In this document: piece by piece, positions 9,678 to 56,095 of the stretch
Position numbering within the stretch: the stretch's first letter is position 1
How the letters are laid out: the number at the start of each line of letters is the position of its first letter
NCBI GenBank assembly: GCA_001643675.2
Contig: LSRY02000034.1
Coordinates: 744,001-808,000, forward strand
DNA: 64,000 nt
Source: Monocercomonoides exilis PA203
Taxonomy: Eukaryota; Protista; Preaxostyla
Direction of reading: 5' to 3'
Position numbers and translations under genes: made by a program
The notes under the pieces: model-generated
The model's database searches: none
What the model was told of the DNA's origin: nothing
What the model saw: only the letters and a program-made list of their open reading frames with translations

Positions 9678-9681
9678 ATTT

Positions 9682-9868
9682 GGGTGATTGTTTTTGGAAT
9701 ATTATTTTTTAGATGAATTTTTTTTTTTTATGAATTTGCGTTGAATCTTTGGAATAGAACATTAAAAAGAATAGTCTTATTTTTCATGAAGCATTTGACC
9801 TTCATTGATCTCAAATGTGAGTTTCTTTTCACTGGAATAACATTCGATTTTTCGAAAAATATAATTAT

Positions 9869-9919
<51 letters not shown>

Positions 9920-10153
9920 ATTTGGATCAGAATTTTTGCATTTATGAAAAATTCAATGATTTGTTCCTCACAATTTCTGCGTCGAATTATTGTAATTCTG
10001 GCATTCTCATGAAAAATAAAATATTAAAATATTAAAATGAAGAGGAAAATATTTGAAAGCATTGTGTGGAACAAAATTCTCAAAGCAAAAAATTTCGTCC
10101 CATTTTAATGAATAACACACCGAAAAAAGTTATGACTTCAAAAATAATCACAC
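9682..10153. mobile_element. Longer degenerate family-A element abutting the previous copy, containing a 47-nt poly-A (9871-9917)
   Basis: Starts GGGTGATTGTTTTTGGAAT 4 bp after the previous copy; ends CCGAAAAAAGTTATGACTTCAAAAATAATCACAC. Confidence 0.55.
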
Positions 10154-33800: not shown

Positions 33801-36800
33801 ACAAAACGCTATTTGTCTCAGAGAAAATATCTTCAACGATCATGGATGTGAATGTGCCAGCAACATTGCTTCCATCAAGAGAAATCAATGGACAATTGCC
33901 AATGGTCAAGGGCAATGCATTCAACGATGAAACAGAAACTTTCCCTGTTGTTGTTGACAAAAACACATAAGACAACGCTGATTTGGAGTCTTGAAAAGTC
34001 AGCGAGCAATCTTCAAGTGAAAATGATTGTGAGGCGGAACTGAAGAATGCTTCATAATTTGGAAGAGCAGAAGGAACAGAGAGAATTAGCGAACTCAGAT
34101 ATGCTATTGCAATGACTGTTATCATGCATCCGTCACTTCTATCCGGATCATTGCCCACCTTCCATCCACTATTTCCATCTTTCCCTCTGATTGTGTGCTT
34201 GAAGGAGTCGAATATCAACTCATCTTGTATTTCAATCACCCCATCGACAACAATCTTCTTTTCTTCTTCTTACCTTTCCAGTGAGTGCTTCAGAGTCATG
34301 CAGGGAAATTCAGCAAATCCACAAAAAAAGTGATAAAATGCATCTGCATTGCTCACATAAATCTCATCAGAAATTATCATCAGATAAGCGCACAAAGGAA
34401 TCGGAATTGAATCATCGCCTTTATCGAATCCTCGAATTTCATCCAACAACGGATTTGAAGCTGTCAATGAAGTGATCTTCCCACTTGTTGCTGTTAATTC
34501 CAAATCAATCGAGTCAACAAAAATGTCACTTCCCCATTTCGCCCTGTTTCCTTCAAACGCTGATGAAATCAGAAACTCTGCACTTGTATCTTTCACTTTC
34601 AGTCCAATCCCTCCTCCTCTCCCTTGAGTGATCGAAGCAAAACAGTTCTTCACAACACCTCCATTCATCGTCAATGAACCAACATTCCCCATTTCAACCA
34701 TCATCCCTCCTCCAAACTCAGAGGCTTCACTCCCACAGCCATCAAGTACGCATCCCTCAAGAGTTATTGAATGTGACCCTTCACTCACACTTATCAGCGA
34801 TGATCCTGCTGTTGTCCTCACAATGTTGTTGAATGTGCAGTTATCCAGAGACAATGAAACAGAAGATCCTTGAGGCAGAGATATCACACTTGTGGAACTG
34901 AATGTTCTCCCCCATCTCACATCTTGCATCTTCAACTTTCCCCCTTCCAGTTTCACGAGTGAGTTCTGAATACACCTCTCCACTGAATGAGCAGAGTCCA
35001 TGGATTTGTTCAATCTCTTCACATCTATCAATCAACTTCCTTGAACTTCAAACAATCTGCATTGTTTGTTGCTTTCAAACGATGTATTGTGAATCACAGA
35101 CAGATCGTTCACAGTCAATCCTCCTGTTCCAACGCAAAACAGACTCAACCCATTAGCCTCAAATTTTGTTGCAATGGCAGACCCAGATGATGAAACTTTA
35201 TTTTCAGAGATCGTTTTCTCTCCAACATCAATTCCTTTTCCTTCAACAACCATTCCAGCTAGTACCCTGATTTCTTCCACAAACCCCGCAATCATTAGGG
35301 ATAGACAATGGCTAATGGTCAAACATGCACATGATTCATTCAATCCGCAGTTAAATGTGTCTTTTGCATTGGTTTGAATCTCCTTCGAAGAAACAAATCT
35401 GCTTCTTCCTCCTTCATTTGGAAGCCATTCACTTTTATCTCCCTCTGCAAAATACCTAATTCCTTCGGTTCGTGTGGAATAACAACAAAAAGTCTGTGGG
35501 TTTAAGCAGTCGTCAACAACATGAATGTTATTGCCATAACTGGCAGTGTTATTATGAAAAAAGCAAAACCATAACATATCTCCTCCAAAAGTCTGAACCC
35601 TCATTGCAACACCGCCTCCACAATAAATAGCATCACAGCTTTGGAATAAACAATTTCTCGTAACTAATTTATCAATTGGGCTCCAATGAAGAAGTCCGCC
35701 ACCATATGAATAACTTTTGTTAAGCACAGCACAATTAATATTGGGTTACACTTTCACCTCTGACCCTTTTTTTTACCCCCACCCTTTTTTTTGTGGAGCT
35801 GGCTACGGCTTAATACAAGCTTGTGCCAACAAAAAATAACTTGAAATGCTTATTTTAATATATTCAACTAATACAGAAAAAAATTTTTTCGAATTTTTTT
35901 GACTTAGAGATCTCAGTTTTTTTTAATTTTATTTTTTGATCATTGAATTGATGGTCTTTCCATGAATATAACATACTGGAAGTTTTAAGGAACATCATCA
36001 TTGCACATCATATCCTTTTTATTGTTTTTATAACTTTTCACATTTCACAAGTTTATTTTTCACCTGTTTTCTCATTTCATCGACTTTTCGAAAAAATGCA
36101 ATTCCTTAAAGATTTTGAGTTTTTGAAAATATTTTTAAGATTATCCTTAATATATAGTTATTTTTTAATCATGTGGAATCACAAAAAAGTTTTTCAAATT
36201 TGATTTTGAATCGAAAAATGAAAAACATCATTTTCGGTTGTTTTGAATTTTTCAGCCAGAAACATTTATTCAGCAAAATATTTAGTGAGCTTGCAATAAT
36301 ATATTGAGTTAAAAATAAGAGACAGCTTATAAAATTAAAAAATTGTCTTTTACACAATCAAAAATTGCATTTTATCAAAAAGTCGATGAAATGAGAAAAC
36401 AGGTGAAAAATAAACTTGTGAAATGTGAAAAGTTATAAAAACAATAAAAAGGATATGATGTGCAATGATGATGTTCCTTAAAACTTCCAGTATGTTATAT
36501 TCATGGAAAGACCATCAATTCAATGATCAAAAAATAAAATTAAAAAAAACTGAGATCTCTAAGTCAAAAAAATTCGAAAAAATTTTTTTCTGTATTAGTT
36601 GAATATATTAAAATAAGCATTTCAAGTTATTTTTTGTTGGCACAAGCTTGTATTAAGCCGTAGCCAGCTCCACAAAAAAAAGGGTGGGGGTAAAAAAAAG
36701 GGTCAGAGGTAAAAGTGTAACCCTATGAACAATCCAAAATGCATTTATTTGTTTTCATTGCTTTCGAACTCCAAATTCCAATTCCGCCTCCATCGTTTTC

Positions 36801-37856
36801 AGACCATTCATCTTTGAATAAACAATTCTCCACATATGCTAGAATTGTCATTCCTTCTATTTCTATCCCAGCATTTCCATTATTTGTTGATTGCATATAA
36901 TAGCACTCAACAAGTGTGAAATGCTTCACAGCGCATTCTGCAATGCTCAGAGGAAACATTCCCCCTCCTCATGCGGATGTTGCATTGCATTTCACAAAAG
37001 ATGAATTCTCAACAGTCAGCGTTGCATTCGAATTTTCATGCACATAAAGTGCTCCACAACATGGAGCAGAACATCCATTCCATTCAGCGTTCATAAAGTT
37101 CTGTGTTTCTGTTGTTGATAGCCTGTCTGTATTCTTCGCTCTCCAATGCACTCTTTCGTTGTTCACGAAAGTGCAATTGTTGCAGGAAAAGAAAACAGAT
37201 CCTTCTGTTCCGCTCACAATCCCTCCTTCAAGCACATTCATTGAACTTTCAACTTGACAATCTTCCATTACGCTCATTTTCATCATCAGCTCTTTTTCAA
37301 TTTGCTTCGTCTCTCTTTCGCTATGTTTCTTTGTGATATTCACAAATTCACAGTTTTTAATTCCTTCAAAACATCCTGAACCTTCTCTCAAAAGGCTTCC
37401 ACTCCCACAAAATGCAATATTCTTCCAAACACATTTTCTCACAAGCAACAATGAATCTTCAGCATTCATCTGCACAACGCTTTCCATCAACTCAAAATTG
37501 TCGTTGTTTTCAAAATTCAAGGAGGTATTGATCATTTCGCATGTTCCTTCATTTTTGACATAATGATGATAAGAATCACTCTTTTCCAAAAGTTGACTGT
37601 TTTCAACAACAAGGAGTGATCTTGTGAAGATATCGAATGCTAAGCAGCCATCGCGCTTTTCGACCAATATTCCCTTCAATTTAACAGTTGAATTGAAAAT
37701 TTTGCTGAGTACATGAACAATACTTCCCTTTGCCGAAGCATCACTCTTCTTCGCAACAGGAATGCAAAAGGTGACTTTTCCGTTGCTCAGCAGTTCATTT
37801 TCATCATTGCCACAGAATGATAAACTCAAGCACAAAACCAAAACAAAAGGAGTCAT
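27846..37856 (-). pseudogene. Disrupted giant receptor-like gene (signal peptide, Cys/Gly-rich beta-helix-like ectodomain, TM, C-terminal pseudokinase)
   Basis: Collinear same-strand ORF fragments (36969-37856, 36723-36959, 35032-35727, 34270-35031, 33376-34239, 30755-32956, 27846-30668) broken by frameshifts/stops and one foldback insertion. TM FWVIIVVACAVFIVLLAVIVVLVV; kinase C-lobe LRWKAPE...VFSIGMMVWE...IPF. Confidence 0.8.
35743..36723. mobile_element. 981-bp non-autonomous foldback DNA transposon (family B), ~350-bp TIRs
   Basis: GGGTTACACTTT(C/T)ACCTCTGACCC... is mirrored at the right end, with near-perfect complementarity 35743-~36100 vs ~36365-36723. It interrupts the host reading frame. 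Confidence 0.92.
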
Positions 37857-38942
37857 TTCAACAAAGTGATAATGGGTTGGAGAAAACCATTATAGCAGAA
37901 GCATTCGCAAATTATTATTATTCCCATTTCAATAACAACTCTTCTCATTCAGCTTCCATTTTCTGGTACAAATTTTCTTCTTTTATTTCCATTTTTCATA
38001 TTCAATTAATTGTGATTATTAATTCCAAGAAACTTCCATTTTCAATAGATTTCTATTTTTTCTTCAATTTTTTAAGATTTTGCCTTTCCGACCATGTCTT
38101 GTTTGAATGAAATTCCTCATCCGCTCAGCTCCTTTATCATCTTCGTCCATCTTCATAAAAATGTTTCCTTTCACCGGAATTTATCTGTTTTCGATGCATG
38201 ATTTGATAGACTTTTGAAAATACAAATGGAGATAAAAAATATAAAAAAAAGAAAGATGAAAATGAAAATTTAAATACCGAGAAATAATTCCGAATGTTCA
38301 AAAGCAGCATATTATTGATTTGCTTCATTGAATAATATTGTTTCAACTCTTCATCGTGTATCCAAATCCTCCTTTTTTGGAACGTCTTTACAGGAATTTT
38401 TTTTCATTTTTTCAGAAATAAATTGATTTTCAATTCCATATCCTTTGTTCTTTTTCTTTTCTGATTTTTCTTCATTTTCGACCTCTTTTGATCCTCGTTT
38501 TGCTCTCTTCTATTTCATGTCAAATTTTTTCAAGCCTTCTTCTTCTTTAATGCATTCAATGTTTTCCATCAGAACTGTATTCAACTTTATTTTTCTTTTT
38601 TCTAGTTTGTTTTTGAATCAATCTAACTTCAGAGCATTTTCAGTCAGTAATCCAATGAAATTCTTCCTTTTTCAAATATTTTTCTATTCTATTAAAAATA
38701 CCTCAATTCAGCGATTTCTCACCTTTATTGAACATTAACAATTGCTTTTTAATGAATAAGAGGAGATTTGGAGATTGCTTACTCATGGAAATTGCTTCTT
38801 CCAAAAAAAAAGTTTTCCATATTTCCATTTCCGCAATTGAGTTGTTATGTTGTTCACATCTTTGTCATACCAATGGATTGTTGGAGAGTTTCTGTGATTA
38901 ATAATCAAAATAACCCATTTTTCTTATGATTTAATACAGATA

Positions 38943-39945
38943 AGGTGGTTTTTTTATCCGGTCAATTTTTTTATATTCCGGACATTTTTTTTATTGGCGT
39001 ATCTCACTAAATAAAAACTAAAAACAAAAAAAAGCATATTGCACCAGGTTTGAGCACGTATTAAATGTTCATCCAAAAAATTTTTTTGTCAATTTTTGTT
39101 TTTGATGAAGATCTTGAGAATTTATAATTTATTTTTGATCATTTGTTTTGCTCGTTTATAATCGACTCTCTTTTTCTGTCAGTTTTTAGCCACTGGACCA
39201 TGAATCATTCATAATTATCATATATAATTTCAAATCTTTTTTGTTTTTTCTTATTTTTTCACGAGTTTTTCGCATTTCATTGTTTTTGAAGAAAATTTTA
39301 TAAAAACTCATATTTTCTCAACTGTTTTTTATTCTTTCAAAAAAAATATTAAAATTTTGTGCAAATTTGATAAAAATGCATTGCTTCTCAAATTTGTTTG
39401 TCATATTTCATAAAATCAAAAACAAAATGAGCAATTTTGTCATAATGAAAAATCTATTTGTACTGTTGAAACAACAACATTTTTCAAAATTTTCACGTTG
39501 TGCATATTTACTGCAAGTATTTATCATTTGACGCATATCACAAAAAACATCTTATAAATATTGTGAAGCTCATTATTTTCAGTTTTTTAAAATTTTCTTC
39601 AAAAACAATGAAATGCGAAAAACTCGTGAAAAAATAAGAAAAAACAAAAAAGATTTGAAATTATATATGATAATTATGAATGATTCATGGTCCAGTGGCT
39701 AAAAACTGACAGAAAAAGAGAGTCGATTATAAACGAGCAAAACAAATGATCAAAAATAAATTATAAATTCTCAAGATCTTCATCAAAAACAAAAATTGAC
39801 AAAAAAATTTTTTGGATGAACATTTAATACGTGCTCAAACCTGGTGCAATATGCTTTTTTTTGTTTTTAGTTTTTATTTAGTGAGATACGCCAATAAAAA
39901 AAATGTCCGGAATATAAAAAAATTGTCCGAATAAAAAAACCTCCC
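38943..39945. mobile_element. ~1003-bp non-autonomous foldback DNA transposon (family C), ~365-bp TIRs, TA flanks
   Basis: 38943-~39308 is the reverse complement of ~39580-39945; TA at 38941-2 and 39946-7. Confidence 0.9.
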
Positions 39946-40314
39946 TAGATAAAAATTTTAATCAAAATCCATCTTGAAAAGAAAAATCTCAAACATGCAA
40001 TTCCTTTTATGTTTATGTTGTTGAAGTTTTGAAGTCTGTTTTCCCTTCAGATTCAAAGTCTGGCATAATTTTTATTTCTATTACATTTTCGTGTTCAATG
40101 CAGCCTTTCCGAGCAAATTAAATAATCCAAGGCATAATTAAATAATATCAAAGTAATCAAAACTTTAATGTTTCTATTGCAACATATTTATTAGTGTATT
40201 CTAACAATCTTTATGTTATTATAAATGCTTGAATATGACTTGTATATTTTTTATGAAAAAAATATTATTTTGGGTGAAACAAACGTTTTATGGGTTTGAT
40301 CAAATAAAAAATCA

Positions 40315-40772
40315 GTGAAAACGGCGGATCCCGAAGATGAAAAGGATCATAATTTTGAACTTTTGAAAACATTCACTGATGAAGAAAAGGCTTGGCTGTG
40401 GTTTTATCGATTTGTTTTTCAAGACAAAGAGATATGGCATATCAGCTATTTATCCATTTCGATTTTGATCAATCAAATATATCGATTTATGTATATCTGA
40501 TGGTTGTTATCATCTTGAATAATAAGTTGGAATAGGCAATGATAATAAGATAGAGATCGAGAGTTATTGCTCATATTCTTAGGGTTTATCATGACAAGAT
40601 TTTCAGTGATGTTCTATAAAGAAGGAGTTATTGTTTGGTGCAATCGATATGTATCTATGGCTGACCTACAATATCTCCAAGGAGGAAATTAGCTAAAAGA
40701 TTAGCTGAAAGTGTCGGAGCTGGTGAAATAATGGTGAAAATTGATGAAATCGTTGGTGGAAATCGCAAATAA
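40315..40772 (+). pseudogene. N-terminal remnant of a Merlin/IS1595-like DDE transposase (mirror copy at ~44129-44586, minus strand)
   Basis: Across frameshifts: LLKTFTDEEKAWLWF, ELLLIFLGF...VIVWCNRY and VGAGEIMVKIDEIVGGNRK*, resembling the Merlin G...VEIDE...GxRK motif around the first catalytic Asp. Confidence 0.55.
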
Positions 40773-40806
40773 AAATAATTGATTTTGTTTTTTTGTTTTA
40801 TCGTAA

Positions 40807-40989
40807 ATGGGTCGGAAGAAGATATGCGCAATTGTGGAAGAAGCTAAAGCGGCTCAACAGAAACAAACTAAACAGTTTCAGGAAAAACGTAAGGAAGAAA
40901 CAAAGTATTACAACGAACATGTATCTGAAAAACAGAAGAAATTGATAAAGATCTTGAGAGAAAGCTTGTCGAAAATGATGAGTTGTTAA
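40807..40989 (+). CDS. 60-aa basic coiled-coil ORF in left arm
   Basis: ATG-initiated MGRKKICAIVEEAKAAQQKQ...KYY; identical copy in the other arm. Confidence 0.45.
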   Translation: MGRKKICAIVEEAKAAQQKQTKQFQEKRKEETKYYNEHVSEKQKKLIKILRESLSKMMSC

Positions 40990-41258
40990 ATGAGTTGATG
41001 GAAAATGTTAATGGTTAAGTTGAATGTGTTTATTTTTCGTTGAAAGAGTTAACTGTCACTTGCCTGTACAGGGTAGACTGAGCAGGTAATTTAGATGTTG
41101 TGGCGTGGAAATATTGGGTTAAATCTTCATGCTGGAGAGTGGACAGGTAGACAGAACTGAACAGGATTAATTATTAACTCTGAAATATGTGAGCAAATGG
41201 GCAAAGTGAGCAAAGTGGGCAAATGTGCAAAAACAAAACAGTATTATTTCCGTTATTG

Positions 41259-43520
41259 TTAATTATCCTCATCCTCAGATACAGTTTGTTTATGCATTTG
41301 TTAACATTCATCTTTCAATGTCAAATGCCATGAACGTATTCTATTTATTGTTTGTCGTTCACGTTCACATTTATTTTTCAGTTGCAGTTGGAAGTTTCTA
41401 TCTTTAATTTCAACAGGTTTGCAGAGGAGAGCTTCTATTCAATTCATTCCAACACATAGCTCGTCATAATGATTTCAAATCCACATTTCCATGCCACTTT
41501 TGCTTGCTTCATTAATATCTATTTTAGCGTCTGTCATTGGTATTGACATAACGTTTAATGATGAAAGATCTTTGTTCATCACATATATGAGCAAATTGAA
41601 ATAAAACTCTGTCGTGAATGAAGAACATTGTTGTTTGAAATGATTGATATTGCTCTTGTATTTACCGTTTCATGCAAGAACAACATATCTGCGATCTCCT
41701 GTTTCAATCAAAACCGGAAATGAGTGATTTGTCACAAATATGAAATTTGCCACATTCTCGGCTGTTCTGTGAAAAATGTTCTTCTCATTTATTCTAACAA
41801 TGTTTTCTGTTATATCAGACTTCAACACATTGTAATTTGGCAATCTGTCGTCTCCACAATTTTTCAGTTCATTTAAAATAATCAACATTTTGCTTTCAAC
41901 AACAGAGTTGAAGTTTCCAGTCAATTCACCTGTTTCTGTGACATTTCATCTTGAATAACCAGCAAATAGTTCAGATATAACATCAGTGAATCTGTTTTTC
42001 CCAATACCTTGAATTCATTTCAATATCAATGCTGTTTCATTTTTTATTCCAGTGTGTTGAACAATATTAGCAATCCAGTGAATAACATATTCATATGCAT
42101 CATCGTTGGAGTCAGCAATTACCTCACGAAAAAAGTCAAGAAACATTTAGATTTTTTCCATATCGACATGTTCACGTAAATTGTACTTAAAACCTTGAAA
42201 TATTGAGAATACATCAGCTGTATCTTTTGCGTTAATCATTACACCTTGCAATGTTTGTTTCGACAAACAAGACAGAAGAATGTCATATGCTGTCGTTGTT
42301 TCATGATCAGTTTTCCACAGTTTTATCATCTTTTAATTACGTGTAATATTTGTGTCTGTAACAAACGTTATCCCCCAACGTCTATCGAATATATTGAAAT
42401 CCTTTTGTGTAAGCATTGCCTCTGCTACAATAAATTTAATTACTCTTGACAAATCACTTGTAACATCATCAGCTGTTTTGTATTATTTTGTCTCAGCTTT
42501 TCGTCGAATGTCAGTCACGGAAAACGAATCAAACATATCAATTGATTTAACGATATTGGTGTCGTTTCTCAGTAACGGTAATATCTCGTTTGTGTGATAG
42601 TCATTATTCCATATTTTGCACATCTTTACTAATACAAATGGTGATGATCTCAAACATCTGTATCGTTGTTTTGCAGCATAATAGTTATCACGTGCGTTAG
42701 TTGTCAAATTGTCACTGTTTTGTACTCTGTCGTAAGCTAATTCGATGTGCTCATTCGGTTATGAATTAATCGCTTGAAACAGTGTGAAAAACGGGACTTC
42801 TCTGTTGATTGGCATATTTCCCACTTCGTTATGAATGACAAAACTTTCCAACCAGTTAACAAAAACATTAGCTAATTCGTCACTGAAATTGTCATTGTCG
42901 TTGTCTTATTTTTCAATATTATCCATTTCATCAGATGTTTTTGTTTACTGTTTCAATGAGAGATCGTTTAATATACCGTTAACATTTCGTGTAATTGCTG
43001 AGTCAAACGAACCTCAAAGAAGCTGATAAACATTTGTTTTTGATTGATGATCCTTACGCACTTTGCTGTTTGATTATTCTATTAATGACCGTTTGCTCTC
43101 GTCCAAAGATGTCATGACATCTACATCAAATTCATCGCAAGTGTAACATTTAATCATTCTGTTGGAGTTGGCGAAGAAGTCATCTGTATTTGCACAAATG
43201 TGTGATCCCCATGAAGCTGTTTGAACAACGATATCGTCTTCATCCAGTTTGTTTAATATTTTTGATCCAACGGATTGTTTGGACTCATCGTCTAACGATT
43301 TGTTAATGTCAATGTCGACAACAGTTAAATTTGACACTTTGTTCACCAATACTGCTCTTCCAGTAACAACAGAGCCACTGTCTCCATCATGCTTTTGATA
43401 ATTGCATAAATCAACAACGTAAGTGTCAATTCTTTCATTCAATGTTTTTTCTTCCATGCTTGTAAGGAGTTGAACCGTGTTGCAGTCGTTACTGATAATT
43501 TCGGTTATACTTTTGCTCAT
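41259..43520 (-). pseudogene. Decayed Prim-Pol (AEP) + SF3/D5-like helicase fusion gene, ~750 codons, no introns evident
   Basis: N-terminal VVDID, VQTASWGSH (TxSGGxH-like) and DVD AEP motifs. C-terminal LILK*IQGIGKN (Walker A, G replaced by stop), LTGNFN..VESKMLIILNE (Walker B), LKSDITE, FIFVTN...DRRYVV (sensor 1/Arg finger). Several in-frame stops and frameshifts. Confidence 0.85.
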
Positions 43521-43911
43521 GGTTGCCAATTATATACTAATTTAAAAAAACAATTTTTTTTTTGAAACAGACTTGTTTTTGAAACGGTGATTTACGGGGA
43601 AGATGATATAGGGGTTAATGTCGAAAATGAACCATTACAGTTAATTTTTTCATTTTTTGTTTTTTGCCCAATTTGCTAACTTTGCCCGTTTGCCCACATA
43701 TTTTGGAGAATGAAATTGAACCGGTGCATCCTGTGCACCCTGTGCAGATGAAAAGCTCGGAAATTTAACGCAATATTTCCACGCCACAACATCACTCACA
43801 TTTCCTGACCAGCTTAACCTTCCCATCCTGTGCAGGCAAAATAGTTAAGTCTTTCAACCATAAAATATTATCATCAACAACTTAAACCATTAACTGTTAT
43901 TATCAACTCAT

Positions 43912-44094
43912 TTAACAACTCATCATTTTCGACAAGCTTTCTCTCAAGATCTTTATCAATTTCTTCTGTTTTTCAGATACATGTTCGTTGTAATACTTTG
44001 TTTCTTCCTTACGTTTTTCCTGAAACTGTTTAGTTTGTTTCTGTTGAGCCGCTTTAGCTTCTTCCACAATTGCGCATATCTTCTTCCGACCCAT
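43912..44094 (-). CDS. 60-aa basic coiled-coil ORF in right arm
   Basis: Identical translation to 40807-40989. Confidence 0.45.
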   Translation of the reverse strand: MGRKKICAIVEEAKAAQQKQTKQFQEKRKEETKYYNEHVSEKQKKLIKILRESLSKMMSC

Positions 44095-47000
44095 TTACGA
44101 TAAAACAAAAAAACAAAATCAATTATTTTTATTTGCGATTTCCACCAACGATTTCATCAATTTTCACCATTATTTCACCAGCTCCGACACTTTCAGCTAA
44201 TCTTTTAGCTAATTTCCTCCTTGGAGATATTGTAGGTCAGCCATAGATACATATCGATTGCACCAAACAATAACTCCTTCTTTATAGAACATCACTGAAA
44301 ATCTTGTCATGATAAACCCTAAGAATATGAGCAATAACTCTCGATCTCTATCTTATTATCATTGCCTATTCCAACTTATTATTCAAGATGATAACAACCA
44401 TCAGATATACATAAATCGATATATTTGATTGATCAAAATCGAAATGGATAAATAGCTGATATGCCATATCTCTTTGTCTTGAAAAACAAATCGATAAAAC
44501 CACAGCCAAGCCTTTTCTTCATCAGTGAATGTTTTCAAAAGTTCAAAATTATGATCCTTTTCATCTTCGGGATCCGCCGTTTTCACTGATTTTTTATTTG
44601 ATCAAACCCATAAAACGTTTGTTTCACCCAAAATAATATTTTTTTCATAAAAAATATACAAGTCATATTCAAGCATTTATAATAACATAAAGATTGTTAG
44701 AATACACTAATAAATATGTTGCAATAGAAACATTAAAGTTTTGATTACTTTGATATTATACAATTATGCCAAAATCGAGGAATGCGAATGCTGAGAAGTG
44801 GGATGTGGAGAAAAAAATCGAAAAGATCGAGACCGTGATGAAGATGGACAAGTGCCTTTCAAACGAGGAAGAGAAGCAGCAAGACTTGAAGCTTGAAGAG
44901 CAAATGCTGATTTTGAAACAGTCAAGGGTAAATTCAAATGGAGATTTCAATGCTAATGGGAAAGAGAATGAGAATATAGAAAATTAAGTAATAAATTCAG
45001 ATAAAGAAATTTTAATTGTGGGAAGAAATAAGAATAATTGTGATACTGTGGAGGAGTTTTTGTCATAAATAATTGTTTCGAAATTGTCTCCTGCGGTTTC
45101 TTCATCATCTCAATAATAATCATCTTCTTCGTCTTCTTCCAAGCTCTGGTTTTATGAAAAATACAAACCTTTCTTTATTTCCTATTTTTATAAAGAAAGA
45201 TGAAAAAGGGAATAACAGAAAAGAAAGAAGAAGAAGATGAAGAAGAAGATGATGATGATAATGAATGCAAAACGAATTGCTATATTTCAGAATTTTTTCA
45301 CTAATTTGTTTGAATGAGAAGAGAGCTGATCCTGAACAAGAATAACGGAAAACAACAGAAATGATTCCAGGAGAATGAGTTAACTGTGGAGGAAACATGT
45401 GATATGATGGAAAAAATAGACAATGGTTTGTTTACGAGCTGAAGAAACGAGACGAAAAATGAGGATGAGGGAAAAGAAATTTCTTTCATTCTGGTATTGT
45501 GTCATCGATGTTGGACAGCGCTAGTGGAACGGGAGCAAGTTTGAGAGAGACGGATGATGAATAACAGCAGCAATAAGAATAGAAGCAAATGCAGATGAAA
45601 CAGATGGATCTTCCTCCTGGAACAGCAACAAAACATATTCTGCTGAAGTTGGTTCAATTTTTGAGAACGAAAAAGACAAAATTGACAATATCTACCAATA
45701 ATAATTGCTGCTGCTGAAAAAGAAAAAGAAAATGGAACAGATGATCGATAATCTGGGAAGAGAAGGAGAGGAAGGCGCGTCAGCAGCTTTTGTTGTGCAG
45801 AGGATGTTTGATGTGAGAAACGGAGCAGATTCCGAAGAGAAGAAGATTGACATCTTTTGATACTCACAATATGAGTGGAACACTTAGCGCGCTTGCCGCA
45901 ATGACTCTCAGTACGTGTCAACACAGCTTCTTCTGTCTGGTTCTCAACATGTAATGGACTAGTTTTAAAGAAAGCAGCGACAGGAGAAGCAGGTGGAGAT
46001 TCCGTTTGTGAATTTTGAGCAATCATTGAACATTTCACTTGCAGCGCTGGATATGGTCACAAACCTGCTCTGCACACTGAACGATAACTCAATTAAGTAT
46101 GATGATCAAAAAACGAGAGATGAGAAATTTGAGAAGAATTACCAGTTCATTTTGTGTATGTATCCCATTGCGAAGTTCTTTTTCAGCATCGCTTTCCTTT
46201 CAGTCAAGATAGAGACAACGGAAGAGAGCATAATTGTATCGTGGGGTTGAATTTGAGTCGCAATACGCAGACAAGTTACTGATGTATGAGGCGGAAGCAG
46301 CAGAGGAGAAAAAGTGGTCGTTGGAAATATTAAAGGATCAATCTATCTGTTTTTGATTAGAAGATGTCTGCATCAAGTGGTGTGGACACACTGGAAAAGA
46401 AAAATGTCATATGTCTAAAAAGGATTGTGAATAAAAAGAAGATCCAATTAATATCGCAGGAAGAAGAGTTTAAAAAAGAGACAAAGTCAGGTTCACCAAG
46501 AGAAGCATGCTTTGCGAGAACAGCGAGTGAATACAGCTACATTCTGGATTATTTGGCATTTTTTTATAAAAGATTGACAAGATTTTCAAAGAATAGAGAA
46601 ATCAGGAAAGCAGAAAAGAAGAAGAGGCGGTGGAGATTCTGATTTCAGCGAGAGAAAAGAAAAGAATACCAGACGGATCGACTTCAGCAATAGCGAAGAT
46701 CTGAAGCGATGTGGTGTGTTGAAATTTTTTATAAAAACAAAGAATTATTATTATTATTATTATTATTTCATTGGTTTTGATATAATTTTTATATTCTTAT
46801 TAAAATTTTGAACTATTGGCTTTGAATTTTCTCTTTTTTTCCAGTGAAATGCAATTTTTTTGCAGGATTAATGTGTTGATTTCAATTGTCATTTTGTGAA
46901 TGTGCTAATTGATAATCTTCATTGAATTTCTTGTTTGAACAACATCACCGTAGAAATCACTGAGGCGCTTAATCTTTCCAGTCTGTTTGGACTCACACAA

Positions 47001-47897
47001 TCAACAACCAAAAAGTTCTGTGCAAGAAGTGATGAAAGAGCAATTTTTCATTTTTTAAGGTTTGCACTATTTTTCGATAATTGTTTAAATTGTTTTAATC
47101 ATATATTTTTTTTCACATTTTTTCAAATTATTCAAACTCTAATTTCTCTTTATTCAATCAATTAATACAAAAACATATGAACCCTCACTTTTCATGGTTT
47201 TATTTCTTTCAACCTTTTCTTCTAAGTTTGAGTGATGTGTCTTTTCCATGAACTCTTTCCAGTGTTTTTATTGCCATTGGAAACAGAACAGATAAAAAAG
47301 ACTGAACAAAAAGCCATTTCCACAACACTATCTGCTACGACAGATATTTCTGTGACACAACTGACTGCCTCCTCTCCACACAGCAAGACTTCCTCTCTTC
47401 GTCGGATACTCGATATTTCTTCTCTTCATCCCCATCGCCTTCCTCATCTTCTTCTTTCTCATATCAACTATCCACCGATGGCTTCATCTTCACCTTGTTT
47501 GAGTCAGTCAAGCTCCCTTCCTCCAAAGCGAACATCCTTTCATATTTCCAACAAAAGACATCTCTTTTTCCTCCATTTCATATTATCAACTAAATTTATT
47601 TCTTCCCCATCACCCTCCAGATCTCCTTCTCCTCCTCACTTTTGCTCCAGTATTCCTCTATTTCTGACATTGAATTCCAGCAAATGCTCTCTTGCATATC
47701 ACATTCGCAATTCTTCGAATATACGAACGCAAGGAGCAGGTTTGCTCCTCAATAATGAGTGTTATTATAAATTATGGGTGGTTTAAGATCAAACTTCGCT
47801 TTCAATTTAACTTCTTCACATACCATTGTCCGCTTTTTATATGACGCAAGATACGGTTTGAGTTCCGAATAGCGACGGCGAGGACAGAAGTTTTGAT

Positions 47898-49058
47898 TTG
47901 ATGCACAGACTTGCAAGGGTAGAAGATATGATTGAAGAAATTTCAAGAAGCCAAACACTAGCAATGCAGTCGGGAGCTACGGAGTTGCTGCCAACGAGGA
48001 AAGTGAAGAGGGAACGAGCAAGGAGAAGAAGCAGATCGAGATCGAGCGAGTCGGAGTTGGATTCAAATTTTTGTGATCTGATCGCGAGAGGGAAACAAGG
48101 AAAGCGTGAGAAATTACGTCGCACATATAGCCGAATGAGAAGACGGGAAGACGAAGAGGATAGCGAGTGGGATTCTGAAGAGCTGGGAGCGCTGCAAGAG
48201 AAAGAAGGAACCGAAGACTTCACAAGAATTTTTCCCAGGGAGTGGTTGACACCTCGGAGACAAGCGAGGGAGTTGAGGAAGTATATTGAATTTTGCAAAG
48301 CTGGCTCGATAAGAATGAATAAAGTCATTCTAAATACTTTTATTCCGGAGAGCGAGAAGGAATTTTTCACGGGACACACGGATACAAGCTGGAACGCGCT
48401 TGCCAGAACAGTCATCACAACAAAGGGTAGAAGAGACTCACCAGAAGCCAGCCGAGCAATTGAACTCCTCCAGCCTGCCCTTGAATCGGGCTTTGATGCT
48501 GCAAAAGCGATTGCAGCCCTCACAGTGAAAGAATCGAGGAGAACGTACTTAGAGGAAGAAGAGAAGGAGCGTTTTATGGATCTTTTCAAAGCGTTCTCCC
48601 TGATAGTTGACTGTATCAGTCGTATAAACCTTTTGAAGGTTGTACCCCAGGCGAACTGGGAGAACGGGAAAGAGTTCCTTGAGGGAGGAATGATCAAGAA
48701 GGTGCAGGAGAACCTGAGGAAACTAGTGGAGAGCACTAGCTTTTTTCAAGCAGGGGGAGATGCAGAAAGATACGGTGCATCTCCTGACTCCACAACAGGT
48801 TTCGGGCCCACAACAGCCAGAGGGGGACTTCCGAGAATATACAGTTCGGGAAGGAGCACCCAAGGATTTGTATACAGACAGCTCCAGAGAAGAGGATACG
48901 GCAGGAGCTTCACAGACTTCAAAGGAAAGAAGAGAACACCCCAGTTCCAGGCCCAGTTCGTTCCAACCATCGCTGGGAGGCCAGCCCCTATCATTGGACC
49001 ATTTCCCCCTGCCCCCTCAAGGACCCAAGGAGGGACAGCGATGGAACCATCAATCTGA
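47898..49058 (+). CDS. Gag-like ORF1 of DIRS-like element
   Basis: 386-aa basic ORF immediately upstream of RT, with an R/G/P-rich C-terminus; assigned by position. Confidence 0.6.
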   Translation: MMHRLARVEDMIEEISRSQTLAMQSGATELLPTRKVKRERARRRSRSRSSESELDSNFCDLIARGKQGKREKLRRTYSRMRRREDEEDSEWDSEELGALQEKEGTEDFTRIFPREWLTPRRQARELRKYIEFCKAGSIRMNKVILNTFIPESEKEFFTGHTDTSWNALARTVITTKGRRDSPEASRAIELLQPALESGFDAAKAIAALTVKESRRTYLEEEEKERFMDLFKAFSLIVDCISRINLLKVVPQANWENGKEFLEGGMIKKVQENLRKLVESTSFFQAGGDAERYGASPDSTTGFGPTTARGGLPRIYSSGRSTQGFVYRQLQRRGYGRSFTDFKGKKRTPQFQAQFVPTIAGRPAPIIGPFPPAPSRTQGGTAMEPSI

Positions 49059-49066
49059 TCCAACAA

Positions 49067-51169
49067 GTGGCCTCAGGAGCAGAGAGGCAGAGGAGAGAGA
49101 AAGAAGAGAGAGAAGAGAGAGCCGCGCTTTGCAGCGAGACCGAGAGAGGAGAGAGAGAAGCAAATTACAGAGAGACGAATACACGACGAGCAACCGTAGC
49201 TCCGGGCGAGACGCGATCAGGGACGGAAATGCAGAAACAACAGGTGAACGTCAGAGGGACTCTGAACTCGTTTGACCAAAGAAAGGAGAGAGAACGAGAA
49301 ATCACGGGGGATTCGGCGAGAGAGATATCGATAGAAGATGTGCGACACGAGACAACGAGAATAGAAGGAGACTCCGATTATCCCCGGGTGACGGGACAGA
49401 AGAGCGAGAGGGAGAACGGGAAGATAGTTTGGAGAAATTCTGGGATTGTTATCGGGAACCCAATTGGGAGCGCCCGGGAGGGGAGCTCGAGGACAGCTAT
49501 ATTAGATACTCTCGAAGAAGAAGGGAATACACAGACGCAACTTGGCCACAAGACGCAAGGAGTGAAGAGGAGTGCAGTGATTGGACCACCGAGGGAGCCA
49601 CTTCCGGAGAGGTTAGTGAACAGGCTGAGCGAGTGGAAGAGGATTGGGGGAGACAAACTAGTGAGCCGTGGTATAAAAGCTCGATGGAAAAGTCCCCTCT
49701 TTCCAATCTCACTCGAGGAGAGAAAACACAGACAAGAATTTCGGGGAACAACGGAGATGACGAGCAATTATTTGTCCCTCTTGGAGGAGGAATTGAAGGA
49801 AGGAGTGGTGAACCCCATACAGGAGTCGGAGGTGAAGTGGTTCAACCCGACATTCATGGTCCGGAAGAAGAACGGAAAGTGGAGGAAGATTCTGGATTGC
49901 AGAATTTTAAACGAGGAAGTGCTAGGGAAACACTTCAAGATGGATTCCCAGGAGACAGTTGTGGAACTCCTGGAGGAGAACGATTGGATGACTACGCTCG
50001 ACATATCGAGTGCTTATCAACATGTCAAAGTGGATGAACAACTCATCCACTTCCTGAACTTCAGCTTTCAAAGTCAACGCTATTCAGACGTGGGGATGCC
50101 ATTTGGAGCAAAAGACACGCCCAGAGTATTCACGAAGATAATGAGACGGGTAGCGTCATATATCAGAGAACATTGGAAGGAAAAGCTGATGATATATCTG
50201 GACGACATCCTCCTCATGCACCCAGACAGGGATGCATTGAGATCGATCTCACAGGAGATAGCCCAGTTACTGAGAAATCTGGTGTGGATACTGTCGGAGG
50301 AGAAGCTGAAATTAGAACCCACAAGGAGTGGGGAGTTTCTGGGATGGCTGTGGAATTCAGAGAAGATGGAAGTGTTGCTCCAAGAGAGGAAGAGAGTGCT
50401 GCTCCTGGGGAATGTGCGAACCTGGATAGCACTGGCAAAGAGAAAGAGACAGAAGACGAGGGATTTTGCCGCACTCCTCGGAAGGTTGAACTTCGTGAGA
50501 CTGCAACACCCGCCAGCGAGCTTGTGGATGAAGCGCATGCAACATGTGCTGAGGCAGGCAATAGCCCGCGGGGGCGGGAAGGGAACGGTGATAGTCAGCT
50601 TAATAATTCTGGGAGAATTAACACATTGGAGGAAGGTCCTGCAAGAGAACAGGCCAAGGAGTCTGAAGAGAAGAAACAGATCAGCAGAACTTGCAACGGA
50701 CGCTTCAGAGCTGGGATGGGGTGCAGTGTTAACAATACTGAAAGAGAACAAAGAGGAGAAGATTTATGTCCACAGAAGTTGGACCCTCCAGGAAAGAACA
50801 TTTCCGATCAACGAGAAGGAGTCCAGAGCAGTATAAAGGATACAAGAGAGAAAGTGAGAGTGGTTGCAACAACAGAAGGTAGATCATATTCGTCTGAAGA
50901 AGGAAAACATGTCCACGAGATGAACGATACAGAATAAGAGGGGTGCGCCGTCGCTCATTCCAACACTGAGGGCATTGGAGAAGAAACTGAACAGCCTGGA
51001 CATTACGACGCAAACGGAACTTCTACCGGGAGAGCAGAATATGGAAGCAGATGCACTCAGCCGGATGGCGAAGAAGCCGGACTATGCATTGAATGGGGAG
51101 ATAGTTGCAGAGTTATTACAAACAATCGCACAGAGAAAACATCAGAAGCTGGGAGAGAGGAAAATATGA
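49067..51169 (+). pseudogene. Reverse transcriptase-RNase H of DIRS-like element, disrupted in RNase H
   Basis: FMVRKKNGKWRKILDCRILN, HFKMD, LDISSAYQHV, MPFG, IYLDD, FLG; RNase H ATDASELGWG, INEKESRAV*, then LPGEQNMEADALSR after the break. Confidence 0.92.
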
Positions 51170-52028: not shown

Positions 52029-52280
52029 ACTTAAATACATTTTCCTTTCAAAATAATTTTCTTTCAAATTCAGCAGTTGCATAACATTCATACTCAATGT
52101 GCATCTTCATTATTAATTAAACTTTATAATGAACTGAAGTTGATGACATTTTCGGATCAATTCGTTCTTCATTTAAAAATTCTGTCCCACAATTGCGTTA
52201 GATTTAAAATGATCTGATATGTAAATTGGAAAAGGTGTTCGTGAGCAACGAACAACATTTCACGATCATCATAAATCCAT

Positions 52281-54818
52281 ATGGGAAATGATATTGATTC
52301 AATGAGCAATTGTGCATCTGACAGTTCTGAAATGAGCAGTTCGACAGAAAATAGCGGAACTTTGGGAGATGAAGATGAAATCACAGAGGCAATGCGACAT
52401 ATCATCAATACCAAAACAGAACCACCAGAATGGTTGAGGCACGATGTTACTCTTTCAGATGATAACGGACGGACAATGGCAATGCATTGGATACGGAAAG
52501 TCAAGACAGAACCACCCAAGTGGATGAGACATGACAAAAAACTTGCAGATAGGAAAGGACAGACAATGGCCATGTACTGGATTGAATATGTGAAGACTGA
52601 ACCACCAGAATGGATGAGACATGACAAAAAACTAACTGATGAGGACGAAAAGACAATGGCCATGTACTGGATTCGACATGTCAAAACAGAGCCACCCAAG
52701 TGGATGAGGCATGACAAAAAACTTGCTGATAAGGATGGAGTGACAATGGCCATGCACTGGATTGAATATGTGAAGACAGAACCACCACATTGGATGAGAC
52801 ATGACAAAACACTTGCAGATAGGAAAAAACAGACAATGGCTATGATATGGATAGAAAATGTGAAAACAGAGCCACCAGTATGTATGAGACACGAGATCAC
52901 TCTTGCGGATAAATATGGACATACAATGGCAATGCATTGGATTGCAGAAGTCAAAACAGAGCCTCCAGAGTGGATGAGACATGATATTAAACTTGCTGAT
53001 AACAAAGGAAGAACAATGGTTATGATATGGATTGAAAATATCAAAATAGATCCTCCGGAATGGATGAGATACGACATCACACGTGAAAAAGGAGAAAGTG
53101 GTACAATGGCCATGTTATGGTTACGGAAAGTTAAGATAGAACCGCCTAAATGGATGAATTATGAAAATACGATTAGAGACAAAAAAAAAAGAACAGATGC
53201 AATGAATTGGATTATGGAAAATAAAAATGAACCGCCAGAATGGATGAGACATGACAAAAAATTAACTGATGACGAAGAAACGACAATGGCCATGCACTGG
53301 ATTGAATATGTGAAGACAGAACCACCAGAATGGATGAGACACGATATAACAATTAAAGGTGGTTGGAGAAAACGGACGATGGCAATGCATTGGATCAAAT
53401 ATGTGAAGACAGAGCCTCCTGAATGGATGAGACACGATATAGATCTTGGTGATGAGTATGGTGAAACAATGGCCATGTACTGGATTGAAAATGTCAAAAC
53501 AGAACCACCAGAATGGATGAGACATGATATTACTCTTGCTGATAGTAATAAACAGACAATGGCCATGTTGTGGGTACGGAAAGTTGAGACAGAGCTGCCA
53601 GAGTGGATGGATTATGATAATACGCTTCGTGACGATAATGGAAAAACAGAAGCAATGCGTTGGATTGTTATGAATAAAACTGAACCACCAGAAAGGATGA
53701 GGCATGATATAACACTTGTTGATAGAAAAGGAAGAACAATGGCCATGATATGGATTGAATGTGTTCAAGCAGAACCACCAGAGTGGATGAGACACGATAT
53801 AACATTTGGAAATAAGAATGGAAAGACAATGGCAATGTTTTGGATTGCGAATGTCAAGACAAATCCACCAGAATGGATAAGGCACGACATTAATATTAAA
53901 GGTGGTTGGAGAAAAAGGACAATGGCTATGAAATGGATTAAAAATGTGAAGACTGAACCACCAGAATGGATGAGACACGATAATACTCTTGTTGATAAAG
54001 AAGGACAGACAATGGTCATGCTTTGGATTGAATATGTGAATACAGAAACACCGGAATGGATGAGGCATAACATTACTCTTGCTGATAACAGAGGAAGAAC
54101 AATGGCCATGCTCTGGGTTGAATATGTCAATACGGAACCACCAGAGTGGATGAGACATGACAAAAAACTTACTGATGAGGACGAAAAGACAATGGCCATG
54201 TACTGGATTGAATATGTGAAGACAGAACCACCTAAGTGGATGAGACACGATATCACAATAAAAGGAGGTATTGGGGAACGAACAATGGCCATGTGCTGGA
54301 TTGAAAATGTAAAGACAGAACCACCAGAATGGATGAGACATGACAAAAAACTTGCAGATAGGAAAGGACAGACAATGGCCATGTACTGGATTGAATATGT
54401 GAAGACTGAACCACCAGAATGGATGAGACATGACAAAAAACTAACTGATGAGGACGAAAAGACAATGGCCATGTACTGGATTCGACATGTCAAAACAGAG
54501 CCACCCAAGTGGATGAGGCATGACAAAAAACTAACTGATGAAGAAGGAACGACAATGGCCATGTACTGGATTGAATATGTGAAGACAGAACCACCTAAGT
54601 GGATGAGACATGACAAAAAATTTTATTGTAAGGATGGAGTGACAATGGTAATAATCTGGATTATTTTTGTGAAAACAGAGCCACCCAAGTGGATGACATA
54701 TGATGTTACACTTGCTGATGAAGAAGGACAGGCAATGGCCACGTTATGGGATATATTTGTCAAAACAGAACCACCAGAATGGATGAGACATGACAAAAAA
54801 CTTACTGATGATGAGTGA
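52281..54818 (+). CDS. 845-aa tandem-repeat protein: ~26.6 units of 30 (occasionally 31) aa, consensus KTEPPEWMRHDxxLxDxxGxTMAMxWIxxV; ankyrin-like hairpin motif
   Basis: Uninterrupted ORF with a 90-nt period and synonymous variation among units, preceded by an acidic ~45-aa leader. Confidence 0.88.
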   Translation: MGNDIDSMSNCASDSSEMSSSTENSGTLGDEDEITEAMRHIINTKTEPPEWLRHDVTLSDDNGRTMAMHWIRKVKTEPPKWMRHDKKLADRKGQTMAMYWIEYVKTEPPEWMRHDKKLTDEDEKTMAMYWIRHVKTEPPKWMRHDKKLADKDGVTMAMHWIEYVKTEPPHWMRHDKTLADRKKQTMAMIWIENVKTEPPVCMRHEITLADKYGHTMAMHWIAEVKTEPPEWMRHDIKLADNKGRTMVMIWIENIKIDPPEWMRYDITREKGESGTMAMLWLRKVKIEPPKWMNYENTIRDKKKRTDAMNWIMENKNEPPEWMRHDKKLTDDEETTMAMHWIEYVKTEPPEWMRHDITIKGGWRKRTMAMHWIKYVKTEPPEWMRHDIDLGDEYGETMAMYWIENVKTEPPEWMRHDITLADSNKQTMAMLWVRKVETELPEWMDYDNTLRDDNGKTEAMRWIVMNKTEPPERMRHDITLVDRKGRTMAMIWIECVQAEPPEWMRHDITFGNKNGKTMAMFWIANVKTNPPEWIRHDINIKGGWRKRTMAMKWIKNVKTEPPEWMRHDNTLVDKEGQTMVMLWIEYVNTETPEWMRHNITLADNRGRTMAMLWVEYVNTEPPEWMRHDKKLTDEDEKTMAMYWIEYVKTEPPKWMRHDITIKGGIGERTMAMCWIENVKTEPPEWMRHDKKLADRKGQTMAMYWIEYVKTEPPEWMRHDKKLTDEDEKTMAMYWIRHVKTEPPKWMRHDKKLTDEEGTTMAMYWIEYVKTEPPKWMRHDKKFYCKDGVTMVIIWIIFVKTEPPKWMTYDVTLADEEGQAMATLWDIFVKTEPPEWMRHDKKLTDDE

Positions 54819-55414: not shown

Positions 55415-56095
55415 GTGTTAAAGAAGGTTGATGAGAAAGAAGAGACAAGGAAGAGATTACCATCTATCTCATCAACTTCAACAGCAAAAACAGAATTAAC
55501 ATTTGTTCAATCTGAGAGTCTGCGTCCAACAATTTCATCGATGTCTTACTTACTGGCTGCAACGGCCTGTTCTTCGCCACATGAGAAGCTGATTGTGGAT
55601 CTGAGGGATTCGTTGTTCATGCTGCTTCATGGGCTGAATAAGACAAAAGAGATGGCGATTGGGACTCTGCAGGAGAGGGAGATGACAGCTGCGCAGATCC
55701 TGTTCTGGGTGGCTAATCTCGCACTCCATTCATTTGACGAAATGGAGAATCCTCTCTCTTCTCTTGCCAATCTCGGCCCGCACATTGTGCTGTTCTCAGA
55801 GCATATGGTGATCTGCATTGTCATGCACTCAGAGCTTTAATCAGATGACTCTGATTCATCATCCATCTCATCGTCAACTGTTGTGACATCTGTCAGTGAT
55901 GATGATGAAAGTGACTCCCTTCCCTCATCGGCATTTGAGGATGAAGATGATGATTTGAAGGAATGCCTCAGATGGAAAGCACCTGAGCTGATGATCAACA
56001 AGAAGATGGAGCAACAAAAGAGTCAGTTGCCTTTTCTGTTGAAATTATACACTGTGTCTGAGGTTAAAGATCCCATCAAAAGAGCAGGAAAATAA
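55415..56095 (+). pseudogene. Fragment of the cytoplasmic pseudokinase region, paralogous to ~28200-28850
   Basis: Near-identical ACSSPHEKLIVDLRDSLFMLLHG...ILFWVANLALHSFDEMENPL...ECLRWKAPEL; internal stop at 55838-40; no ectodomain or TM. Confidence 0.88.

What the first reader, a model, noticed from the sequence alone, without database searches (positions are those of the whole stretch)
40131..44770. Composite element: Merlin/IS1595-like arms enclosing a virus/plasmid-type primase-polymerase-helicase
Seen: ~1.1 kb inverted arms with GG..CC termini surround one intronless gene with AEP Prim-Pol motifs fused to an SF3/D5-like helicase. No capsid, packaging ATPase, PolB or retroviral-type integrase is visible. 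Established: Prim-Pol/SF3 fusions are replication proteins of plasmids, satellites, Polinton-like viruses and NCLDVs, while Merlin elements are cut-and-paste transposons with GG termini and 8-9 bp TSDs that normally encode only a transposase. Inference: this may be a relic of an undescribed self-replicating transposon or linear plasmid-like element that pairs its own primase-helicase with a Merlin transposase. It could instead be a Merlin derivative that captured a viral replication module. The flanks ATAATCCAA/AAAATCGAG match 6/9, which is only weak support for a 9-bp TSD.
Basis: partly seen in the sequence, partly recalled or inferred. Interest (0 to 1): 0.88.

Follow-up and report, generated by a model that had tools for sequence, protein, structure and literature searches.

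The report
Dead Maverick primase in foldback arms
A broken primase-helicase gene, closely related to those of Maverick virus-like transposons, sits between two long inverted arms that end in a short Merlin-like transposon scrap; the arms likely became identical by a late copying accident, so this is probably a dead, non-autonomous remnant and not a new self-replicating transposon.

Summary
The structure is real, but it is a layered ruin. The core (43520→41259, −) is a 753-codon AEP prim-pol/SF3 helicase gene with 14 in-frame stops. It is 52% identical to a multi-copy Trichomonas vaginalis protein and 48% to a homolog lying beside DUF4108, an A32 ATPase and a PolB-like ORF, the gene set of class-3 Trichomonas Mavericks. 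Other relatives lie beside an ATPase or an rve integrase. The arms are 100% identical for 858 nt, then about 70% identical for about 230 nt. Only the outer ~300 nt look like Merlin (terminus, start context, ~40 codons; by eye). There is no DDE domain and no 8-bp target duplication. The rest of each arm is a separate high-copy repeat with two small ORFs. The gene has decayed by about 11% per site, against under 0.35% between the identical arm blocks, so the arms were made identical after the gene died. The host is most likely Monocercomonoides exilis. It holds other decayed copies (82–91% identical), some joined to the same inner arm. Best reading: a non-autonomous Maverick remnant given foldback Merlin ends by a late inverted copy. 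A minimal primase-only replicon is not excluded (about 12%).

The parts
40122..40130 (.). Left flank, candidate target duplication (weak)
   Evidence: 6 of 9 against 44771-44779; 4 of 8 for 8 bp; chance 0.024 for 6 of 9
40131..40435 (+). Merlin-like 5' fragment: GG terminus, leader, about 40 N-terminal transposase codons, broken
   Evidence: By-eye likeness to Monocercomonoides Merlin termini, start context and N-terminus in PMC8101967 supplement; no profile or database hit
40142..40999 (+). Left copy of the 858-nt block identical between arms
   Evidence: 0 differences; contigs end at 40171 and start at 40970, as a second identical copy predicts
40446..40770 (-). Small broken ORF A of a high-copy repeat, function not identified
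   Evidence: About 140-fold single-copy depth; best-supported differences are silent or mild in this frame; no homolog found
40807..41016 (+). Small ORF B (MGRKKI...), frameshifted, of a high-copy repeat
   Evidence: 79% identical to M. exilis MONOS_17995; about 400-fold depth
41000..41232 (+). Old inner arm with a 23-nt motif (41094-41116) and 9-nt repeats (41189-41231)
   Evidence: About 70% identical to the right inner arm; motif found only in the two arms of this window; repeats
41259..43520 (-). Pseudogene of an AEP prim-pol fused to a D5/NrS-1-type SF3 helicase, Maverick family
   Evidence: 753 codons, 14 stops; 95 homologs; PF19263 E 5e-16; model of an intact homolog matches NrS-1 helicase at Z 27
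43655..43901 (-). Old inner arm, right copy, with motif (43771-43793) and 9-nt repeats (43663-43696)
43902..44759 (-). Right copy of the identical block: ORF B (44094 downward), ORF A (44131-44455, +), most of the Merlin-like fragment
44466..44770 (-). Merlin-like 5' fragment, right copy, ending in CC; 2 mismatches to the left tip
44771..44779 (.). Right flank, candidate target duplication (weak); start of a 70-codon open host frame

Best explanation
This is a dead primase-helicase gene, likely from a Maverick/Polinton, lying between old imperfect inverted repeats, and its outer arms with Merlin-like ends were likely made identical by one late copying event. Steps: (1) Shown: the gene belongs to the prim-pol/SF3 family found in Maverick-like elements of gut protists. 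(2) Inferred: a reduced unit, inner arm-gene-inner arm, arose from such an element and was multiplied with enzymes supplied in trans; diverged copies keep the arm joined to the gene's 3' end (shown). (3) Inferred: this copy came to lie inside, or next to, the 5' end of a Merlin. (4) Shown: the gene then decayed by point mutation. (5) Inferred: much later, repair-type template switching or gene conversion copied 858 nt of one arm, including the Merlin 5' piece, onto the other, leaving the outermost 11 nt and the inner 230 nt unconverted. The result is a foldback that cannot replicate itself and could move only if a Merlin transposase accepted its ends.
For: Gene family and context: 52% to a T. 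vaginalis protein in a 198-member cluster. L027 homolog (48%) lies beside DUF4108, an A32 ATPase and an 843-aa ORF with PolB-like motifs. DUF4108 and a primase mark class-3 Trichomonas Mavericks (PMC12289875 supplement). L002 homolog beside Pox_A32, L001 beside HNH, L003 beside rve. M. exilis has 6 endogenous capsid loci (PMC10120064 supplement). Timing: 14 stops imply about 0.11 substitutions per site (range 0.06-0.18), against under 0.0035 for the identical block; broken small ORFs are shared by both arms. Merlin limited to about 300 nt, no DDE domain, no 8-bp duplication. Near-identical long-armed foldbacks are common here: two more lie within 5 kb.
Against: Primases are internal genes in class-3 Trichomonas Mavericks, so a plain deletion needs two events. 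Neither small arm ORF matched a Maverick-like locus or a non-host protein. The Merlin-like end shows about 8-10-fold depth in the two deep runs, which also fits several Merlin-ended composites. A diverged contig joins the ORF A and ORF B regions, so much of the arm is older than this copy. 1 of 4 related loci tested (L029) has a weak inverted repeat on both sides of its helicase gene. Whether T. vaginalis TVAGG3_0043110 itself lies in a Maverick was not established. The PolB call on L027 rests on recalled motifs; profile and fold tests gave nothing.
Confidence: 0.6

Rival explanations
1. A Merlin-ended cargo family. Two Merlin 5' ends facing inward enclose the repeat and the Maverick gene; the whole unit was moved several times by Merlin transposase in trans, and conversion later made this copy's arms identical.
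For: GG...CC ends with the first 8 nt equal to a host Merlin family's 3' end; 6 of 9 flank match; removing 8 nt keeps a host frame open across the site, a 1-in-3 event; depth of the Merlin-like end (8-10-fold) is of the same order as the core's; over 100 Merlin copies in the host (PMC8101967).
Against: No exact duplication. No listed contig shows the Merlin piece joined to ORF A in another copy (tables cut). An ordinary Merlin family of about 10 copies explains the depth equally well. In the two shallow runs the end shows only 1-2-fold depth.
Confidence: 0.2
2. A minimal replicon. Inner arm-gene-inner arm is a small linear element in its own right, a satellite of Mavericks that encodes only a primase-helicase and uses the arm motif and 9-nt repeats as origins; the Merlin pieces are incidental.
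For: Arm joined to the gene in other copies (contig over 41187-41461 at 82%; joint 41217 to 41306 in 3 of 4 runs); conserved 23-nt motif and 9-nt repeats in both inner arms; 13 of 16 Logan contigs with full-length close homologs are only 92-256 nt longer than the ORF; L029 inverted flanks, score 66 against a shuffled maximum of 46.
Against: The 4 closest relatives with readable context (L001, L002, L003, L027) have other virus-type genes beside them. Short contigs are also what transcripts give. 3 of 4 loci tested show no convincing inverted flanks. Some homologs sit on 11-20 kb contigs. No match in viral contigs for the motif or ORF B.
Confidence: 0.12
3. One reading: a self-replicating transposon that pairs its own primase-helicase with its own Merlin transposase.
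For: Merlin-type ends and a replication gene in one bounded unit.
Against: Only about 40 transposase codons, no catalytic domain; symmetric Merlin ends postdate gene death; no related locus carries a Merlin-type gene among those read.
Confidence: 0.05
4. The identical arms are an assembly or polishing artefact.
Against: In the deeper runs contigs stop at 40171 and start at 40970, 30 nt inside the first mismatches between arms, as two real copies predict; left junctions are covered with 0 differences. The runs are one sample, possibly the window's source.
Confidence: 0.03

Closest known systems
Class-3 Trichomonas vaginalis Mavericks (TvMav3; PMC12289875) and metamonad Maverick/Polinton-like endogenous viruses (PMC10120064)
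   Same: Same primase-helicase family: 52% to a multi-copy T. vaginalis protein; L027 joins a 48% homolog to DUF4108 and an A32 ATPase, both TvMav3 genes
   Different: 4.6 kb instead of 15-26 kb; no PolB, integrase, ATPase or capsid; ends are Merlin-like; gene is dead
Merlin/IS1595 transposons of Monocercomonoides (families F1-F7, PMC8101967)
   Same: 5'-GG ends; first 8 nt as in family F2's 3' end; start context like F3; 8 of 16 residues equal to F1 around the KAW motif (by eye)
   Different: A 300-nt 5' piece at both ends instead of 23-29-nt repeats around a transposase; no DDE domain; no 8-bp duplication; not one of the three families whose DNA I read in part
Prim-pol/SF3 fusions: phage NrS-1 polymerase, ASFV PrimPol, SaPI5 primase-helicase, poxvirus D5
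   Same: Helicase half of an intact homolog's model matches NrS-1 (Z 27.0, rmsd 3.8, 362 residues), SaPI5 (Z 19.1), ASFV and D5; whole-length matches to phage prim-pols
   Different: About 20% identity or less; this copy is a pseudogene
Foldback and cargo-carrying TIR elements (Drosophila FB composites, Pack-MULEs; named in PMC6431247, details recalled)
   Same: Long inverted arms around unrelated cargo, no enzyme of their own
   Different: Cargo is a viral replication gene; ends are Merlin-like; movement as a unit is not shown
Transpovirons (PMC3671162; helicase type recalled) and Teratorn (PMC6431247)
   Same: Small helicase-bearing linear plasmids; fusion of a cut-and-paste transposon with viral replication genes
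   Different: Transpovirons carry an SF1 helicase and depend on giant viruses; Teratorn keeps an intact transposase and about 90 genes

Membership tests
Merlin/IS1595 | 5'-GG terminal inverted repeats | tested here: met
   GGCATAATT at both ends; feature from PMC8101967
Merlin/IS1595 | 8- or 9-bp target site duplication (8 bp in this host) | tested here: not met
   4 of 8 and 6 of 9; an old decayed duplication is not excluded
Merlin/IS1595 | DDE_Tnp_IS1595 domain | tested here: not met
   No Pfam hit in 6 arm frames, none in NCBIfam, no Merlin among phmmer hits of one frame or the word search; KIDE frame has stops in other copies
Merlin/IS1595 | Transposase N-terminus and start context at the 5' end | tested here: inconclusive
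   Clear by eye against supplement sequences but no scored match
Maverick/Polinton | Protein-primed PolB and rve integrase | tested here: not met
   No such ORF or remnant seen in the arms or core
Maverick/Polinton | Packaging ATPase and capsid genes; length 10-28 kb | tested here: not met
   4640 nt; arm ORFs give no match to fetched Maverick-like loci
Maverick/Polinton | 5-6-bp target duplication (length recalled) | tested here: not met
   1 of 5 and 1 of 6
Maverick/Polinton | Core gene belongs to a Maverick gene family | tested here: met
   Homologs beside A32 ATPase, DUF4108, rve and HNH; quick tree groups it with them
AEP prim-pol/SF3 fusion | AEP motifs I-III | tested here: met
   D61, D63, G96, G97, D126 invariant in 73 homologs; DxD, H and D kept in the window copy, G104 changed to W; NCBI names members 'Prim-pol domain family'
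AEP prim-pol/SF3 fusion | AEP fold of the N-terminal domain on its own | not tested
   Only the whole protein was folded; structural rows cover mainly residues 315-736
AEP prim-pol/SF3 fusion | SF3 helicase motifs and fold | tested here: met
   PF19263; NrS-1 match Z 27; in this copy a stop lies in Walker A and motif C is changed
Transpoviron-like linear plasmid | Free linear form | not testable with these tools
   Only contigs were available
Transpoviron-like linear plasmid | SF1 helicase (recalled) | tested here: not met
   Helicase is SF3

The most novel reading that the evidence does not exclude
The unit inner arm-primase-helicase-inner arm is a fossil of a minimal one-gene linear replicon of gut protists: a satellite of Mavericks that replicates from repeat-bearing inverted arms with its own prim-pol/SF3 helicase and borrows integration from transposons such as Merlin.
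Probability: 0.12. Interest if true: 0.8.

Novelty: new variant of a known kind. Interest (0 to 1): 0.3.

Why it matters
As best read, it matters modestly. It shows how part of the large unclassified repeat fraction of M. exilis (35% in PMC8767320) is built from Maverick scraps, Merlin ends and late inverted copying. It also shows that perfect arms need not mean a recent jump. The intact homologs define a prim-pol/helicase family of gut-protist Mavericks that can be assayed. If the one-gene replicon reading held, it would add a new class of eukaryotic satellite element.

Tried and rejected
Recoding or readthrough: rejected. The stops are 8 TAA and 6 TGA and face L, R, K, G, C and variable columns in homologs. 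Misassembly: unlikely. Arm ORF A as a capsid penton or ATPase end: no support. Scored proof of the Merlin fragment: none; the second hit is a repetitive bacterial protein and was ignored. Viral contig scans: alignment query gave 9 distant loci only; P0033, P0134 and the 23-nt motif gave none. Phage records gave only helicase-region matches under 30% among the ten listed. Folding the L027 PolB-like ORF alone failed (pLDDT 31), and a PDB sequence search was blank. No host genome was available. No RNA holder listed. The ESM Atlas gave no result. Four look-ups of earlier findings were empty. TVAGG3_0043110 was not found in the supplements of PMC12289875, one of which is cut. No paper describing this composite appeared in ten searches; subscription papers and Repbase were not searchable.
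Full report
Host. The window reads as an oxymonad genome, most likely Monocercomonoides exilis: an arm ORF is 79% identical to M. exilis MONOS_17995, and an annotated M. exilis D5 protein is among the core's homologs. No host genome could be searched, so copy information comes from public short-read contigs of one sample.

Arms. Inverted arms run from 40131 and from 44770 inward, with GG...CC ends. A global alignment shows 2 mismatches at positions 10-11, no difference over 40142-40999 (858 nt), and then a sharp fall. The inner part has 177 of 253 columns identical, score 180 against a shuffled maximum of 0 in 200 shuffles. It holds a 23-nt motif found only in the two arms of this window and 9-nt repeats next to the gene. 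Contigs were laid on 39700-43530 only, so the right arm's own junctions were not tested directly. In the deeper runs contigs end at 40171 and begin at 40970, 30 nt inside the first mismatches, which is what two real identical copies give in a 31-mer graph (word size from the description of the run index). In one shallow run contigs pass through both points.

Gene. The minus strand holds one frame of 753 codons with 14 premature stops, 8 TAA and 6 TGA, and no frameshift. The stops face different amino acids in 60 homologs, so this is decay and not recoding; 181 of 218 highly conserved columns are kept. The search found 95 homologs among 6964 candidates, the best at 52%, including a T. vaginalis protein in a 198-member cluster, Histomonas 'Poxvirus D5' and Streblomastix proteins. 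AEP motifs are invariant in 73 homologs. A model of an intact homolog (pLDDT 87.9) matches the NrS-1 helicase at Z 27.0, rmsd 3.8 over 362 residues, and matches phage prim-pols over its whole length. The N-terminal domain was not folded alone.

Where relatives live. L027 carries a 48% homolog beside DUF4108, an A32-type ATPase (Pox_A32 E 0.0023, below cut-off) and an 843-aa ORF with PolB-like motifs that I recognise from memory; profiles and folding did not confirm it. L002 has Pox_A32 (E 2.4e-6) upstream, L001 an HNH gene downstream, and L003, read in code 6, an rve integrase (E 1.9e-4, below cut-off) downstream. In PMC12289875 a primase is in 91.8% and DUF4108 in 58.8% of 1705 class-3 T. vaginalis Mavericks. 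I could not place TVAGG3_0043110 itself in such an element. PMC10120064 lists 6 capsid genes in M. exilis. A quick tree of 55 rows, in which I kept about every second close homolog, puts the window protein in a group with T. vaginalis, Histomonas, L002 and L027 (SH-aLRT 92), apart from Streblomastix and the annotated M. exilis protein; support is moderate.

How much is Merlin. PMC8101967 reports over 100 Merlin copies in at least 7 families in this host, with 23-29-nt repeats and 8-bp duplications. By eye, the first 8 nt equal the 3' end of family F2, the start context resembles F3, and 8 of 16 residues around KAW equal F1, at about the expected distance from the end. The likeness stops near 40435. 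No scored search confirmed it. Beyond it, summed contig depth rises from about 10-fold single-copy at the end to about 140-fold (40468-40723) and 400-fold (40724-40979) in run X1; the tool warns that depth is no copy number. Of the four best-supported differences at 40634-40666, two give stops in the frame holding the KIDE motif, while a minus frame gets two silent changes, T to S and R to M. So most of each arm is a separate high-copy repeat with two small divergent ORFs, and the apparent DDE start is likely chance. A longer Merlin remnant scrambled by insertion is not fully excluded.

Target site. Flanks match 4 of 8 and 6 of 9; 6 of 9 arises in 2.4% of local pairs, before allowing for the lengths tried. 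Removing 8 nt keeps a host frame open across the site, but so do 2, 5 and 11. A recent Merlin jump would leave an exact 8-bp copy; none is there.

Copies. Core depth is about 8-30-fold in X1, and other copies are 82-91% identical. One diverged contig spans 41187-41461 and a joint from 41217 to 41306 appears in 3 of 4 runs, so the inner arm is attached to the gene's 3' end in other copies. One contig joins the arm's inner end to the gene's 5' end on opposite strands; it may be another copy or this one. No listed contig shows the Merlin piece joined to ORF A in another copy, but the tables are cut.

Timing. With the observed spectrum of differences, 5.8% of substitutions give a stop, so 14 stops imply about 0.11 per site (0.06-0.18). 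Zero differences in 858 nt bound arm divergence at 0.0035. The symmetric Merlin-ended form is therefore much younger than the death of the gene, or was refreshed by conversion long after it. Two other foldbacks with 99% identical 365-nt arms lie within 5 kb.

Mechanism. Most likely (0.6): a reduced Maverick-derived unit multiplied in trans, one copy landed in or beside a Merlin 5' end, the gene decayed, and one late inverted copy made the outer arms identical. For the replicon: 13 of 16 Logan contigs with close full-length homologs exceed the ORF by only 92-256 nt, and 1 of 4 loci tested has weak inverted flanks (L029, score 66 against a shuffled maximum of 46). Transcripts give equally short contigs, and the closest relatives with context are in multi-gene elements.

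Papers seen. PMC8101967: passages, first part of section 11, supplement searches, 3 of 175 parts of one supplement. PMC12289875: passages, section 6, supplement searches, first part of supplement 1. PMC10120064: passages and supplement searches. PMC8767320, PMC3671162, PMC6431247: passages only. Long sequence rows and some tables in these supplements are cut, and unseen parts could hold this Merlin family or the element itself. Ten literature searches showed no description of this composite.

Verdict. A real but dead composite of known parts; a new variant of a known kind; interest 0.3.

Noticed in passing
window 38941-39947: Foldback element with 365-nt arms, 99% complementary, 277-nt spacer, ending 184 nt left of the finding; very high contig depth where laid.
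   Followed up: partly
window 35740-36726: Second foldback with 364-nt arms, 99% complementary, 259-nt spacer, interrupting a long broken minus-strand gene (about 27846-37889).
   Followed up: no
window 47862-50836: Retroelement with a gag-like ORF overlapping a reverse transcriptase and RNase H ORF (RVT_1 E 5.9e-23); DIRS-like by recalled layout, not tested.
   Followed up: partly
window 52275-54818: Open frame of 847 codons made of about 30-aa repeats (KTEPPEWMRHD), 90-nt period, flanked by a dispersed repeat also seen at 7639-8155 and 9419-10153.
   Followed up: no
window 39700-43530: A-T transversions are the commonest differences among repeat copies (197 of 593 in run X1, similar in the other three), and the core gene has 14 stops without a frameshift.
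   Followed up: partly
window 40440-41100: High-copy host repeat with two small divergent ORFs, one annotated elsewhere as MONOS_17995; no homolog outside the host among 1.84 billion representatives for the frame searched. Its element class is not identified.
   Followed up: partly
L027:1-9384: Maverick-like contig (primase-helicase, DUF4108, ATPase, PolB-like ORF) filed in a bacterial MAG, likely a binning contaminant; L028-L031 are similar cases.
   Followed up: partly
L029:1-3603: Distant helicase gene without an AEP-like start, preceded by 1.6 kb rich in inverted repeats and flanked by a weak inverted repeat on both sides.
   Followed up: partly
window 28184-28834 and 55422-56029: Inverted paralogous stretches, 77% identical, from a kinase-like gene family.
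   Followed up: no
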